A stretch of DNA of 39,055 bases, from positions 1 through 39,055 of the forward strand of contig JAMONQ010000090.1 of assembly GCA_027065635.1 (NCBI GenBank), written 5' to 3'. The notes below the pieces were generated by a model that had not been told where the DNA came from, did not search any database, and saw only the letters and a program-made list of their open reading frames with translations. This DNA comes from Campylobacterales bacterium (GTDB taxonomy: Bacteria > Campylobacterota > Campylobacteria > Campylobacterales > Hydrogenimonadaceae). Of the stretch, positions 27,389 to 35,235 are shown piece after piece (within the stretch, counting starts at the first letter, position 1; each line of letters opens with the position of its first letter). A program made the position numbers and the translations under genes.

Positions 27389-28180
27389 TTAAAGCCACTT
27401 TTTTGCTATCTCTTTGAGTGCCTCCGGATTGTCGGAGGAGAAGATCCTAAGCTCCGTCTCTTTCGCTCTTTCGGGAGTGAAGCCGCTACTTTCAAGATGT
27501 TCGGCTATCGCCTCTCCGGAGTGGATCAGAAGAGGGCGATTTGGAAAATAGTCTCGAATGGCATCGGCTATCAGCGGGAAGTGTGTACATCCCAAAATAA
27601 TCGCATCAGGCGGTGTAAGATCTGCGAAATAATGATCGAGTGCGCTTTGAAGAAGCTCTCCTGAAAATATTCCCTCTTCTACGAGCGGTACGAATAGAGA
27701 GGGAGAGAGAGCTTCGATATTTGAAAAGCCGAGCCTGGAGATTTCATTCTGGTAGCGTCCGCTGCCGATCGTGGCACGGGTACCAAGTATCAGTATACGG
27801 CTCGAGTTCGGAAGGCCCGCGTTTTTTAATGCGAGGACTCCCGGCTCTATAACCCCGTATATCGGGAATGAGGCTTTAGCGCGAAGCTCAGGCAGGGCAT
27901 GGGCGCTGACGCTGTTGCAGGCGGTGATCATCAGGTCGATCTCGAAATTCTTGAAAAACTCCAGCGCTTCGAGGGCGTAGCGTGTAATGGTGGCCGGATC
28001 TTTCGGCCCGTATGGAACTCTTGCGGTATCACCGTAGTAGATTATCTCGTCGAAAAGGCGATGTTTCAGAAGCGACTTGACGACCGTCAGCCCGCCGGCA
28101 CCGCTGTCGAATACACCAACTTTGGTTGGTGTATTCGAGATGATAGATGATGGATGGTGGATGATGGATGGCTTTTTCAT
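27389..28180 (-). CDS. murI: Glutamate racemase with repeat-derived N-terminal extension
   Basis: GVFDSGAGGLTV, YGDTARVPYG, ACNS and LGCTHFP (two catalytic Cys). The N-terminus MKKPSIIHHPSSIISNTPT is encoded by a 7-mer array and a hairpin arm. Confidence 0.96.
   Translation of the reverse strand: MKKPSIIHHPSSIISNTPTKVGVFDSGAGGLTVVKSLLKHRLFDEIIYYGDTARVPYGPKDPATITRYALEALEFFKNFEIDLMITACNSVSAHALPELRAKASFPIYGVIEPGVLALKNAGLPNSSRILILGTRATIGSGRYQNEISRLGFSNIEALSPSLFVPLVEEGIFSGELLQSALDHYFADLTPPDAIILGCTHFPLIADAIRDYFPNRPLLIHSGEAIAEHLESSGFTPERAKETELRIFSSDNPEALKEIAKKWL
28107..28138. repeat. Perfect 14-bp inverted repeat (hairpin) at the murI 5' end
   Basis: TCGAATACACCAAC-tttg-GTTGGTGTATTCGA. Confidence 0.9.
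28139..28171. repeat. Heptamer tandem array downstream of the four-helix-bundle gene
   Basis: GATGATA GATGATG GATGGTG GATGATG GATGG on the + strand. Confidence 0.9.
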
Positions 28181-28542
28181 TCTGTTCTATTTTTCGATGA
28201 TATGAGAATGGCGGAGAGTAGTCGAATAATCGATTCGAGATCATTTTGCAAAGATTTGACTTTGTCGCTCTTTTTTGGCAGATAACCGGTCTCAAGAAGA
28301 AGTTGAATCCAATAGTTGGATTCCCGTGCCTCTTTTTGGGCGATGGACATTTTTGAGATAAAATCTTTTTTACTTTGTGCACTTTGTGCTTCTGCGACAT
28401 TCGCGCCTATGGATGTTCCGGAACGAAGAAGCTGTTTGGAGAGAATGAACTCTCCTCCATCCTCTGTCAAAAATTTATACAGCTTTACAATTCTGACTGC
28501 AAACTTAAATGAAAGCGAAGCGATTTCATTCTTTTCATCCAT
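28177..28542 (-). CDS. Four helix bundle protein (TIGR02436 / '23S rRNA IVS protein' family)
   Basis: SFKFAVRIVKLY, LSKQLLRSGTSIGANVAEA, SKKDFISKMSIAQKEARESNYWIQLL are the characteristic family motifs. Confidence 0.93.
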   Translation of the reverse strand: MDEKNEIASLSFKFAVRIVKLYKFLTEDGGEFILSKQLLRSGTSIGANVAEAQSAQSKKDFISKMSIAQKEARESNYWIQLLLETGYLPKKSDKVKSLQNDLESIIRLLSAILISSKNRTE

Positions 28543-28570
28543 AATCTTGCATCCGAGAAGCGCAGCTTCT
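28533..28570. repeat. Degenerate opposite-orientation heptamers plus a small hairpin at the 5' side of the four-helix-bundle gene
   Basis: Minus strand reads G-GATGCAA-GATTATG-GATGAAA (28533-28554); AGAAGC-gca-GCTTCT hairpin at 28556-28570. Confidence 0.45.
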
Positions 28571-28572
28571 TG

Positions 28573-29892
28573 CTACGCTCCTTCGTTCATGATGCTCAAA
28601 AACTCTTCGTTGTTTTTGGTTTTGAGCATTTTCGAGTAGAGAAACTTGAGAGCTTCAACTTCATCCATCTGGTGCATGGCGTTTCTGAGTGCCCATATTT
28701 TCGGAAGCGTATTGGGATCTGTCAGCAGCTCCTCTTTTCTGGTGCCTGACTTGATGATATCGATTGCTGGATAGATACGACGGTCGGCGATGTTGCGACT
28801 AAGGACTATTTCGCTGTTTCCGGTACCCTTGAACTCTTCGAATATCACTTCGTCCATTCGGCTTCCTGTATCGACCAGGGCCGTGGCGATGATCGTGAGG
28901 CTGCCGCCGTTTTCGATATTTCTGGCCGCACCGAAGAAGCGTTTGGGTTTGTGCAGGGCGTTGGCGTCGACACCGCCTGAAAGGACCTTTCCGCTGGAAG
29001 GGGTTACCGTATTGTACGCCCTGGCGAGTCTGGTGATCGAGTCGAGCAGTATGACGACATCTTTACCCATTTCGACGCGGCGTTTTGCCTTTTCTATTAC
29101 CAGTTCCGCGACCCGGACATGGTTTTGTGCCGGCAGATCGAAGGTGGAGCTGTACACCTCCCCTTTGACGCTTCGCTCCATATCTGTCACCTCTTCCGGG
29201 CGCTCGTCCACCAGCAGGACTATCAATTCGACCTCCGGATGGTTGTGGGTGATACCGTGGGCGAGTTCCTTCATCAGCTCCGTCTTGCCCGAGCGCGGAG
29301 GGGCTACTATGAGTCCCCTCTGACCTTTGCCTATGGGGGTGAAAAGATCGAGAACCCTGCCTGTGAGCTTGGTGGGGTTGTATTCGAGTTTCAGCTTCTC
29401 CTGCGGGTAGAGCGGGGTCAGGTTGTCAAAGAGCGGCCTGTTCTTGCTCTCGGCCACCGGCATATAGTTGATCGCTTCGATCTTCAGCAGAGCGTAGTAG
29501 CGCTCCTGCTCTTTGGGCGGGCGCACCTGCCCTGTGACGACGTCGCCGTTTCTAAGAGCAAACTTTCTTATCTGCGTACTGGAGACGTAGGCGTCGTTGC
29601 TGGAGTTGGAGAAGTTTGCGTCCATGGCACGCAAAAAGCCGTATCCTTCGTTGGTTATTTCGAGGATTCCGGTAAAGAGGATATAGCCCCCCTTGCTTAC
29701 TTGCGACTTGAGAATCTCGAACATCAGATCCTGTCGTTTCAGCTCGTTTGGATGCTCTACACCGAGCTCCTTGGCGATGGCGATCAGCTCTTCGAGGCTC
29801 TTTTGCCTTAGATCTTCTATCTTGTATCCCTCTACGGGGATATGGGTTCTCGATTTTCCGTTATGGTTGTTGCGGGTGGAGGTTTCGCTCAT
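28573..29892 (-). CDS. rho: Transcription termination factor Rho
   Basis: [68 protein letters not shown]. Confidence 0.99.
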
Positions 29893-29995: not shown

Positions 29996-30025
29996 ATTGT
30001 ATCAATTTTGGCTTTTTATTGTCAA
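29996..30025 (-). promoter_or_regulatory. sigma70 promoter of rho
   Basis: Minus strand TTGACA (30020-30025), 18-bp spacer ending in TG-a, then TACAAT (29996-30001). Confidence 0.8.
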
Positions 30026-32596: not shown

Positions 32597-32935
32597 ATGC
32601 AGCAGATCGATATGAGCTCTGACGAGTTTCTGGCGGAGCTGGAGAAGACGAAGAAGTTTACGGACAAGGTGTGCAAGCAGTTTGGATGGGTATACAATCC
32701 GAACGAAGATGTAAACGAAGGCGTTACGATGGGGCTGGCGCGCAACAAGATGCTATACGGAAAAAGGTGGTGCCCGTGTTTCATGGTGATAGAAGACGAA
32801 AACGGAAACCACAAAAGCGCGGATGATCGTCTGTGCCCGTGCAAACCTGCGATAGAGAAGGAGATACCCGAAGAGGGCAAATGCCACTGCGGGATCTTCT
32901 GTACGCCTGAATATGCCGCTTCACACGAACACTAA
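32597..32935 (+). CDS. Ferredoxin:thioredoxin reductase catalytic (beta) subunit-like protein
   Basis: GLARNKMLYG..WCPC, LCPC and KCHCGIF give the CPC-CPC-CHC [4Fe-4S]/disulfide signature. Confidence 0.9.
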   Translation: MQQIDMSSDEFLAELEKTKKFTDKVCKQFGWVYNPNEDVNEGVTMGLARNKMLYGKRWCPCFMVIEDENGNHKSADDRLCPCKPAIEKEIPEEGKCHCGIFCTPEYAASHEH

Positions 32936-34116: not shown

Positions 34117-35101
34117 CGGCAAAACCATACTCATCACCGGGGGAGCGGGCTTTATAGGATCGAATCTCGCCTTCTGGTTCCAGGAGAATTTTCCTGATGC
34201 GAAAGTGGTGGTCTTCGATCTTTTTCGTACCGGTGAAACTTTCGCCAACGGAAATCTGAAAAGTTTCGGACACTACAAGAATCTCAAAGGTTTCAGAGGT
34301 GAAATCATCTCCGGTGACATCACGAAAAAGGAGGATCTGGCGCGACTGGAGGATTTTAGTTTCGACTACATCTTCCACGAGGCGGCCATAAGCGATACGA
34401 CCGTTTACGACCAGAAGATCATGATCGATACCAATCTCAACGCCTTCAAGGATCTTCTGAAGATGGCACAGCGGATGGGAGCGGCGATGATATATGCCAG
34501 CAGCGGAGCTACATACGGCAACGCCCCGGCACCGCAGACGGTGGGGCGGGAAGATCCGGCCAACATCTACGGCTTCAGCAAGCTGGCGATGGACCACCTC
34601 GCCTACGACTGGATGAAACGGAGCGATCTTCCCATCGTGGGATTGCGCTATTTCAACGTCTACGGTCCCCGGGAATTTTTCAAGAACAGGACCGCCTCGA
34701 TGGTGCTGCAGTTCGGGCACCAGATCCTCGCCGGCAAAAACCCCAGACTCTTCGAAGGAAGCGACAAGATCCTGCGCGACTTCATCTATATCGACGATGT
34801 GATTCAGGCCAATATCAAGGCGTGCGAACCGAAGCGAAGCGGCGTCTACAATGTCGGCACCGGCAAGGCCAGAAGCTTTCAGGATATCGTCGACATCCTC
34901 CAGAAGGAGCTCGGCACCGATCTGCCCTGCGAGTATATCCCCAACCCCTATATCGGGCAGTACCAGTTTTTTACCCAGGCCGATATCGAACCGACCCGCG
35001 AATATCTGGGGTACGAACCGGAAGTGAGCCTGGAGGAGGGTATCCGGCGCTATCTTCCGGAGATCGTCCGGATTTATGAGACTGAAGTCGATAGTCGATA
35101 G
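34106..35101 (+). CDS. rfaD: ADP-L-glycero-D-manno-heptose-6-epimerase (HldD/RfaD)
   Basis: ITGGAGFIGSN, FHEAAISDTT, YASSGATYG, YGFSK, LRYFNVYGPRE, RDFIYIDDV, YQFFTQAD. Confidence 0.96.
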   Translation: MDFNGKTILITGGAGFIGSNLAFWFQENFPDAKVVVFDLFRTGETFANGNLKSFGHYKNLKGFRGEIISGDITKKEDLARLEDFSFDYIFHEAAISDTTVYDQKIMIDTNLNAFKDLLKMAQRMGAAMIYASSGATYGNAPAPQTVGREDPANIYGFSKLAMDHLAYDWMKRSDLPIVGLRYFNVYGPREFFKNRTASMVLQFGHQILAGKNPRLFEGSDKILRDFIYIDDVIQANIKACEPKRSGVYNVGTGKARSFQDIVDILQKELGTDLPCEYIPNPYIGQYQFFTQADIEPTREYLGYEPEVSLEEGIRRYLPEIVRIYETEVDSR

Positions 35102-35122
35102 TCAATGGTTAATGGTCAATAG
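35087..35122. repeat. Heptamer tandem array (left), overlapping the rfaD stop
   Basis: GTCGATA GTCGATA GTCAATG GTTAATG GTCAATA G. Confidence 0.9.
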
Positions 35123-35206
35123 AAAGAGAAGGGATGCGATGAAGAGTAAAACGTTCGGTCGAATGTTAATGTTTTTGATTGTGGGAAACGATATGGAAAA
35201 AAGATA

Positions 35207-35235
35207 CTATCGATCATCGACCATCGACCATCGAC
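35207..35235. repeat. Heptamer tandem array (right), inverted relative to the left array
   Basis: C TATCGAT CATCGAC CATCGAC CATCGAC; its reverse complement (GTCGATG)3 ATCGATA G matches the left array consensus. Confidence 0.9.

What the first reader, a model, noticed from the sequence alone, without database searches (positions are those of the whole stretch)
28107..28570. Four-helix-bundle gene as a cassette bounded by inverted 7-mer arrays and hairpins, wedged between rho and murI
Seen: a TIGR02436-like gene lies between two housekeeping genes. It is followed by a clear (GATGATG)n heptamer array (28139-28171) and preceded by degenerate GAT-phased heptamers of opposite orientation (28533-28554). 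A hairpin lies outside each array (28107-28138 and 28556-28570). Its stop overlaps the murI start (ATGA). Established: the family has no assigned function, is patchily distributed, and is structurally related to the DGR accessory protein Avd, which binds nucleic acid. Inference: gene plus inverted heptamer arrays form a transposase-free mobile or RNA-structured unit, possibly with the protein recognising the arrays. A second array pair in this window (35087-35235) supports a recurring system.
Basis: partly seen in the sequence, partly recalled or inferred. Interest (0 to 1): 0.78.

Follow-up and report, generated by a model that had tools for sequence, protein, structure and literature searches.

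The report
Repeat-armed four-helix-bundle gene cassette
A small, well-conserved gene sits inside a housekeeping operon between two mirror-image runs of 7-base repeats, the same package recurs at many gene junctions across bacteria, and its protein likely helps keep and slowly spread gene-less copies of those repeat arms.

Summary
Real. The gene (28177-28542, minus strand) is a TIGR02436/PF05635 four-helix bundle between rho and murI. Its 3' heptamer array is far above chance; the 5' array has decayed but is clear in orthologs. The 3' array and a 14-bp hairpin lie inside murI's coding frame. Both refutation tests failed: relatives have filled, remnant and empty alleles, every filled one with inverted arms, and 94 of 138 family loci have both arms against 0 of 257 controls. 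The second pair (35086-35235) is a gene-less remnant; 6 of 16 genus junctions there hold the gene. Mobility is slow: here the gene is inherited under purifying selection (dN/dS about 0.08). Added here: gene-less arm doublets form a dispersed family that shares ends with a sister cassette, occurs flipped at orthologous junctions and tracks that gene (10 of 10 against 0 of 8 genomes); arms show no G-U bias. Best reading: a REPIN/RAYT-like system with an Avd-like helper and no enzyme of its own; the RNase III reading is the close rival. This scan noted the gene-plus-arms design before in at least 13 other genomes; my 10 paper searches found no such link outside the Coxiella 23S IVS.

The parts
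28177..28542 (-). Four-helix-bundle gene (TIGR02436/PF05635), 121 aa, pI 9.3; stop overlaps murI start (ATGA)
28533..28554 (-). 5' heptamer arm, decayed (about two units lost against the G004 ortholog); contains the gene's own start codon
28138..28171 (-). 3' heptamer arm, inverted, 4.6 units; read in frame as the N-terminal extension of MurI (codons 4-14)
28107..28138 (-). Perfect 14-bp hairpin: murI codons for VGVFD plus an inverted copy; kept with two-sided changes in relatives
28556..28581 (-). 5' outer hairpin region: 6-bp stem 28556-28570, or predicted 10-bp stem 28557-28581 that pairs rho's last codons and stop with an inverted copy
28573..29892 (-). rho, upstream host gene
   Evidence: TIGR00767
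27389..28180 (-). murI, downstream host gene; its only ATG/GTG/TTG start before the conserved VGVFD lies inside the cassette
   Evidence: (TIGR00067)
35086..35120 (+). 5' arm of the gene-less remnant at the gmhD-hldE junction; overlaps the gmhD stop
35121..35208 (+). Short spacer where 6 of 16 genus junctions carry a four-helix-bundle gene; no protein match is left here
35209..35235 (+). 3' arm of the remnant, upstream of the hldE start (35257)

Best explanation
The gene and its two inverted 7-base arrays form one cassette that is inherited at the rho-murI junction, and it likely works as the resident, slowly moving master copy of a REPIN-like repeat family, with the four-helix-bundle pentamer likely acting as a non-catalytic helper that recognises the arms. 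Shown: the gene-plus-arms anatomy across phyla and phages; filled, remnant and empty alleles; arms that match their own partner and follow the protein rather than the site; purifying selection on the protein; gene-less doublets that share ends with the tpiA-fabI cassette, are alike across sites and stand in both orientations at the same junction. Inferred: the arms fold back or synapse as DNA; the basic, Avd-like pentamer (4-5 units per arm, five subunits) binds them; host recombination or replication enzymes do the chemistry, which would homogenise the two arms, flip or delete the interior, and rarely copy a cassette or doublet to a new gene junction. Insertions would survive where the cassette supplies the upstream stop and the downstream start, as it does for murI. 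In a transcript the same arms would pair into an RNase III-type stem, which would explain why the cassette is tolerated in 23S rRNA.
For: Both arms at 94 of 138 loci against 0 of 257 controls. 74 distinct neighbour pairs among 76 broad loci. Arm-unit similarity follows protein identity across different junctions (0.61 at 55% identity or more, 0.46 below 40%) and is only 0.46 for distant proteins at the same junction; the same junction holds different clades. dN 0.13 and dS 1.6 against G004, like murI. Doublet interiors align across sites at 69-92%, one duplicated pair aside, and match the inner flank of tpiA-fabI cassettes. Interior orientation differs among genomes at two orthologous junctions. 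Doublet hits in 10 of 10 genomes with an intact tpiA-fabI gene and 0 of 8 without. G010 and G011 have no family match and no arrays at the junctions read. No G-U excess in arms (53 G-U, 63 A-C) against 14 to 5 in control hairpins. 6 of 15 viral loci are antisense to phage head or tail genes. Fold matches pentamers 2RLD and 2GSC and, weakly, Avd.
Against: No binding or transposition was observed. No excision or inversion joint with long sides was listed in DNA contigs of 5 runs. No direct target duplication or fixed terminus was seen. No Y1 transposase or reverse transcriptase was found in G000, which is 82% complete. Flipped interiors could be separate insertions. The co-occurrence rests on one genus, on kin, on a single query and on at most 14 scored candidates per genome. 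Doublet units track the genome's own cassette only weakly (mean percentile 0.72, 16 doublets). The doublet family belongs to the sister cassette; no doublet with this window's unit was found among the 17 arrays of G000. The control for the G-U test is small (36 hairpins, p 0.06). Bacterial copies are mostly co-directional with neighbours (65 of 70 upstream, 63 of 73 downstream), which fits an RNA-level role as well.
Confidence: 0.45

Rival explanations
1. RNA device: the cassette is an ORF-bearing intervening sequence in mRNA. The arms pair in the operon transcript, hide the gene's own start and the murI start region, and make an RNase III site; the protein binds this RNA and guards or tunes it, so the host keeps the gene. 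The outer hairpins protect the cut ends.
For: Arms are predicted to pair in all 9 cassettes folded (mean probability 0.62-0.99; 0.82 here). The same design lies in a 23S rRNA gene (L089). In the Coxiella IVS, RNase III cuts at the first heptamer repeat (PMC4990558, passages). The murI hairpin has two-sided changes and G-U cells. Co-directional placement. Avd binds RNA (10.1101/2023.10.23.563531, passages).
Against: No G-U excess in arms. Cutting here would remove murI's only standard start codon. Antisense copies in phages. Interior flips and dispersed doublets need a DNA step. The Coxiella paper found its ORF probably untranslated and decaying, unlike this one.
Confidence: 0.3
2. Host regulon: the protein is an ordinary nucleic-acid-binding regulator; arrays are its binding sites, which arise in place by slippage, and nothing moves as a unit.
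For: Purifying selection and vertical inheritance; doublets conserved at junctions with no gene in any relative read; heptamer repeats affect expression in Nostoc (10.1101/2022.06.06.494920, passages) and were proposed as regulator sites in Beggiatoaceae (PMC4679880, abstract).
Against: The gene itself appears at dozens of unrelated junctions with its arms; doublet interiors are homologous across sites; binding alone does not explain why free positions match between the two arms (own-partner percentile 0.95).
Confidence: 0.12
3. Neutral relics: old insertions whose arms are kept alike by slippage and template switching, while the protein has an unrelated job.
For: Arms decay and are lost often, including the 5' arm here; unit order is not mirrored between arms; template switching can perfect hairpins without selection (established knowledge, recalled).
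Against: Arms persist and change together over saturated synonymous divergence; arms are near universal in the subfamily sampled (74 of 76 with arm-to-arm score 14 or more); arrays are missing where the gene is missing.
Confidence: 0.08
4. Retro-element remnant: like DGR Avd, the protein partners a reverse transcriptase in trans and the cassette moves through RNA.
For: Structural likeness to Avd (4DWL TM 0.73, 8UB8 TM 0.72, both E above 0.1); Avd is needed by the DGR enzyme.
Against: No RVT_1 match in G000 (82% complete); no template/variable repeat pair seen; the reading of G000's junctions showed housekeeping neighbours.
Confidence: 0.05

Closest known systems
ORF-bearing intervening sequence of 23S rRNA (S23p/PF05635; Coxiella, Leptospira)
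   Same: Same protein family; terminal inverted arms closing the ORF in a loop; heptamer repeats just upstream of the ORF in Coxiella (PMC4990558, passages); an IVS from this order has the same arms (L089).
   Different: Here it is in a protein-coding operon, supplies the murI start, is under purifying selection, and has dispersed gene-less relatives; RNase III cleavage is untested here.
REPIN-RAYT systems
   Same: About 100-bp extragenic doublets of inverted units with a variable spacer, and a conserved, vertically inherited gene on which they appear to depend (10.1101/2021.07.10.451892, abstract and section 4; here).
   Different: No HUH/tyrosine transposase; arms are tandem heptamers, not short palindromes; 2-16 hits per genome rather than hundreds; several gene copies per genome, and the gene does change site over time.
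DGR accessory protein Avd
   Same: Four-helix-bundle fold; basic protein; homologs 2RLD and 2GSC have five chains per entry; likeness already noted (PMC10053308, passages).
   Different: 12% identity; no reverse transcriptase or template repeat found with it.
Intergenic heptamer repeats of Beggiatoaceae, Cyanobacteria and Bacteroidetes (TAACTGA, STRR-type)
   Same: Period-7 arrays of 2-6 units at gene junctions, some inside ORF ends (PMC4679880, abstract and passages).
   Different: That paper has no occurrence of 'helix bundle', 'S23' or 'intervening'; it treats them as direct repeats, with no partner gene.

Membership tests
TIGR02436 / PF05635 four-helix-bundle protein | Score above the curated cut-offs | tested here: met
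   105.7 against 24 bits; 95.1 against 33.8 bits
TIGR02436 / PF05635 four-helix-bundle protein | Four long helices matching solved members | tested here: met
   pLDDT 93, four helices; 2RLD TM 0.86, 50% identity
TIGR02436 / PF05635 four-helix-bundle protein | Homopentamer | not tested
   Inferred from 2RLD and 2GSC (five chains each); the complex tool takes at most four copies and no job ran
ORF-bearing 23S rRNA intervening sequence | Located inside a 23S rRNA gene | tested here: not met
   No Rfam match in L001; neighbours are rho and murI
ORF-bearing 23S rRNA intervening sequence | Complementary ends that close the ORF in a stem-loop | tested here: met
   Predicted arm pairing 0.82 here, 15 of 18 nt; weaker than in orthologs
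ORF-bearing 23S rRNA intervening sequence | Excised by RNase III without religation | not testable with these tools
   No RNA holder listed
REPIN-RAYT | HUH/Y1 tyrosine transposase as the partner gene | tested here: not met
   The partner is a four-helix bundle; no PF01797 match in G000, 82% complete
REPIN-RAYT | Dispersed extragenic doublets of inverted units with variable spacer | tested here: met
   (family tied to the tpiA-fabI cassette)
REPIN-RAYT | Doublets depend on the partner gene | tested here: inconclusive
   10 of 10 against 0 of 8 genomes, but one genus, kin and capped candidates
REPIN-RAYT | Partner gene vertically inherited and conserved | tested here: met
   dS like rho and murI, dN/dS about 0.08; clade swaps also occur
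Diversity-generating retroelement | Linked reverse transcriptase with template and variable repeats | tested here: not met
   No PF00078 match in G000, 82% complete; housekeeping neighbours
Insertion sequence / MITE | Fixed terminal inverted repeats, direct target duplication and a cognate transposase | tested here: inconclusive
   None seen on reading filled and empty junctions, but the insertions are old (saturated dS)

The most novel reading that the evidence does not exclude
PF05635 pentamers are the trans-acting factor of a widespread repeat-replicating system with no nuclease or polymerase domain of its own: each protein clade recognises its own heptamer arms, keeps them paired and homogenised, and seeds gene-less doublets through the genome. 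The unexplained heptamer arrays of many phyla and the ORF-bearing 23S IVSs would then be products of one system, and the inverted copies of host flanks at cassette edges would be its insertion scar.
Probability: 0.25. Interest if true: 0.85.

Novelty: new variant of a known kind. Interest (0 to 1): 0.6.

Why it matters
It gives a testable substrate to a large protein family of unknown function with solved structures, and ties three open puzzles together: ORF-bearing rRNA intervening sequences, intergenic heptamer repeats and the origin of the DGR helper Avd. At this locus an essential cell-wall gene takes its start codon and N-terminus from the cassette, which shows how such inserts get locked into operons. 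If the doublets depend on the protein, this is a second REPIN-like system built on a different, non-enzymatic protein.

Tried and rejected
1) Register-specific pairing of arms: a first test looked strongly positive but used the optimised alignment; the unbiased repeat showed nothing (56 loci, 1077 against 1077.6), so I dropped it. 2) G-U bias as proof of sense-RNA pairing: absent (115 to 132; 53 to 63). 3) Period 7 as a stop-in-all-frames device: 41 of 94 5' arms have stops in all three frames but 18 have none, and 22 of 94 3' arms also have all three; not the rule. 4) GC-GAA-GC-type mini-hairpins as a general end signal: enriched in this genus (15 of 41 against 10 of 150) but not in the class or broad sets. 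5) Active excision or inversion: in 4 DNA runs on this locus no joint removes just the cassette; one X2 contig joins 28057 to 28817 with unknown letters between, most simply a related organism. On the C12 cassette the skipping joints have sides of 19-30 letters and are not counted; no strand-changing joint was listed. Contigs drop rare variants. 6) Expression: no RNA holder listed. 7) Helper enzymes in G000: no PF01797, PF00078 or PF13366 match, genome 82% complete. 8) Rfam: nothing at this locus. 9) No internal promoter or terminator stands out in the cassette beyond weak consensus hits. 10) ORF-based orientation calls in the genus were confused by shadow ORFs, so only the broad counts are quoted. 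11) Oligomer prediction was not obtained. 12) CGTC/GTAG REP paper (PMC3733652, passages): no mention of heptamers or this protein.

Full report
Observation. The gene at 28177-28542 (-) is a 121-aa TIGR02436/PF05635 protein between rho and murI. Its stop overlaps the murI ATG. The 3' array (28138-28171) is real: 100 simulated windows gave 0.06 period-7 arrays scoring 10 or more and none scoring 16, against three arrays of 16-17 in the window. The 5' array is weak by itself. The 14-bp hairpin at 28107-28138 is the longest perfect stem in the window; the 6-bp hairpin at 28556-28570 is at chance level alone. The 3' array and the long hairpin lie inside murI: they encode an N-terminal extension, and no standard start codon follows the array in frame.

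This junction in relatives. Of 18 genus murI loci, 11 have rho directly upstream: 4 are filled (G000, G003, G004, G020) and 7 lack the gene; 8 of 12 loci from other genera have rho adjacent, all with 5-21 nt junctions. Reading downstream of rho in 17 genus genomes adds a fifth filled allele (G009) and, by eye, remnants in G014, G018 and G021. G048, of another family, is also filled. Every filled allele has inverted arms, and the unit changes in both arms together. The window's 5' arm is the G004 arm less about two units. The clean alleles of G010 and G011 are sister to filled G020 (97% bootstrap; other nodes are weaker and composition may bias the tree), so they are likely losses. The gene has dN 0.13 and dS 1.6 against G004, close to murI (0.17, 2.0), so it is co-inherited and conserved. 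In the protein tree the G003/G009 copies fall apart from G000/G004/G020, which hints at replacement, with modest support.

The genome. G000 has two intact copies, here and at tpiA-fabI on C12. It has 17 period-7 arrays scoring 10 or more against 2.5 expected. Three flank the two intact genes, one flanks a decayed copy between type II secretion genes on C91, two are the 35086-35235 pair, six belong to gene-less pairs or half-pairs (C116, C146, C151, C120) and five are unassigned. At gmhD-hldE, of 16 genus junctions read, 6 hold the gene, 2 an internally deleted gene, G000 both arms only, G020 one arm, G004 a gap, and 5 are clean.

The family. 20 of 22 genus genomes and 15 of 151 class genomes match TIGR02436. 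Of 145 distinct full-length genes, 7 were dropped for contig ends or gaps. Of the other 138, 94 have period-7 arrays on both sides (25 of 41 genus, 10 of 21 class, 59 of 76 broad) against 0 of 257 control window pairs, and 121 have an arm-to-arm score of 14 or more against 2 of 257. The broad set is the best 80 of at least 590 hits to this subfamily, not a random sample. Arms have a median of 4.3 units, G exceeds C in the 5' arm in 111 of 121, and the broad-set unit reads N-A-R-T-K-N-N. An arm fits its own partner better than about 95% of others. 76 broad loci give 74 distinct neighbour pairs, mostly co-directional. Arm units follow the protein and not the site (49 cassettes, non-independent pairs), and one junction can hold unrelated clades. 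One class locus is a 23S rRNA IVS with the same arms. 14 of 15 viral loci have arm-to-arm scores of 17 or more, and 6 lie antisense among head or tail genes, four of them (two near-identical) right after a terminase gene.

RNA or DNA. The arms are predicted to pair in RNA. But mismatches show no sense-strand G-U excess (53 to 63 in arrays; 14 to 5 in 36 U-tailed control hairpins, p 0.06) and the order of variant units is not mirrored. That fits a strand-symmetric DNA process, or a duplex that needs strict Watson-Crick pairs; it does not exclude RNA. The outer hairpins differ: the murI hairpin is strong in the 4 filled genus alleles, in G010, G011 and G014, and in 1 of the other 21 loci. It has 10 cells with two-sided changes (0 of 500 shuffles; rows were chosen for having the hairpin and G003 is out of register), and a minority contig in run X2 carries one more compensatory pair (28114 and 28131). 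Such hairpins, made of host flank plus an inverted copy, abut the arms in 9 of 32 (5') and 5 of 32 (3') genus cassettes against 2 of 122 controls, 5 of 15 and 2 of 15 against 3 of 60 in the class, and 6 of 74 and 1 of 74 against 4 of 285 in the broad set. They may be selected insulators or insertion scars.

Gene-less doublets. At three G000 junctions (flhA-DHH, mqnD-side, dnaG-side) arm pairs without a gene are conserved: both arms in 10 of 17, 8 of 19 and 13 of 19 genomes read, and none of these junctions holds the gene (read by length and eye). The interior motif points one way in G001, G006, G016, G017 and the other way in G000, G003, G008, G014, G021 at the first junction; at the second it is G000, G008, G021 against G003, G004, G007, G009, G013. 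The same 125-135 bp element has up to 16 hits per genome; of 20 hits fetched from three genomes, copies at different sites align at 69-92%, and their arm-plus-hairpin halves match the inner flank of tpiA-fabI cassettes. Among 18 genomes where that junction's state is known, 10 of 10 with the intact gene have such hits and 0 of 8 without do; four more genomes have hits but no assembled fabI. Kin are not independent, candidates were capped, and G002 has doublets of another unit that matches its own other cassette. Tracking of the genome's own cassette unit is weak overall.

Protein. The model is a four-helix bundle (pLDDT 93) matching 2RLD and 2GSC, and weakly Avd. It is basic (pI 9.3; 83% of the 138 above pI 8). 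Only Q37, R40 and E74 are invariant in 16 diverse members. No catalytic family matches.

Mechanism. I commit, at 0.45, to a domesticated, REPIN/RAYT-like cassette acting on DNA, with the pentamer as helper and host enzymes as catalysts. The RNA device with RNase III is the close rival (0.3), and the two are not exclusive. That the gene and arms are one unit I put above 0.9. Binding, the mobilising step and any host benefit are inferred, not shown.

What is known. Papers seen: PMC4990558 (passages): Coxiella IVS, S23p ORF, heptamers, RNase III. PMC4679880 (abstract, outline, passages). PMC10053308 (passages). 10.1101/2023.10.23.563531 (passages). 10.1101/2022.06.06.494920 (passages). PMC3733652 (passages). 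10.1101/2022.05.22.493013 (abstract). 10.1101/2021.07.10.451892 (abstract and section 4). Ten searches listed no paper linking this family to flanking heptamer arms outside the Coxiella IVS; subscription journals are largely missing and no supplements were read, so the link may be in print. This scan has noted the gene-plus-arms design in at least 13 other genomes; one word look-up for dispersed, flipped doublets returned nothing, and nothing was on file for this genome or look-alike stretches. The analogy to template switching and the gene names gmhD, hldE, emrA/emrB-type and gspF/G rest on family hits or on my reading of translations.

Verdict. A real feature; a new variant of a known kind (ORF-bearing IVS outside rRNA), working most like REPIN-RAYT without being a member. 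Interest 0.6.

Noticed in passing
G000:C91:1199-1480 (L258): Decayed four-helix-bundle pseudogene with both arms between type II secretion gspF- and gspG-like genes; the 3' arm is read as the N-terminus of the pilin-like protein.
   Followed up: partly
L241:2001-2444, L243:2001-2389, L245:2001-2380: Cassettes inserted antisense directly after the same phage terminase family (phrog_38) in separate viral contigs, a possible hot spot.
   Followed up: partly
L039 (G009), L193 (G021), L199 (G018): rho is followed by a cassette or remnant and then dnaX, with murI elsewhere or missing from the locus; murI may be prone to moving from this site.
   Followed up: no
L094 (G048): Cassette at rho-murI in another family, in front of a divergent murI (38% identity) whose N-terminus is again read from the arm.
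   Followed up: partly
L256:1380-1500 (G000:C116:7580-7700): A second, REP-like palindromic repeat family next to the doublet, with several copies per genome; one such repeat is inserted inside a doublet in G008 (L363).
   Followed up: no
L062, L064, L069, L080, L171: Some cassettes use period-8 arms instead of period 7; three of them form one protein clade.
   Followed up: partly
L364, L366, L304: Doublets whose two arms have different units, possibly recombinants between elements.
   Followed up: no
L089 (G074): Three identical copies of the gene, one shown to lie in a 23S rRNA gene with heptamer arms.
   Followed up: partly
window 32597-32935: Ferredoxin-thioredoxin reductase beta-chain gene (PF02943) in a copper-ATPase/ccoS/heptose cluster.
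   Followed up: no
window 29996-30025 (-): Strong sigma-70-like promoter match (11 of 12, extended -10) upstream of rho, the likely driver of the rho-cassette-murI-dnaX transcript.
   Followed up: no
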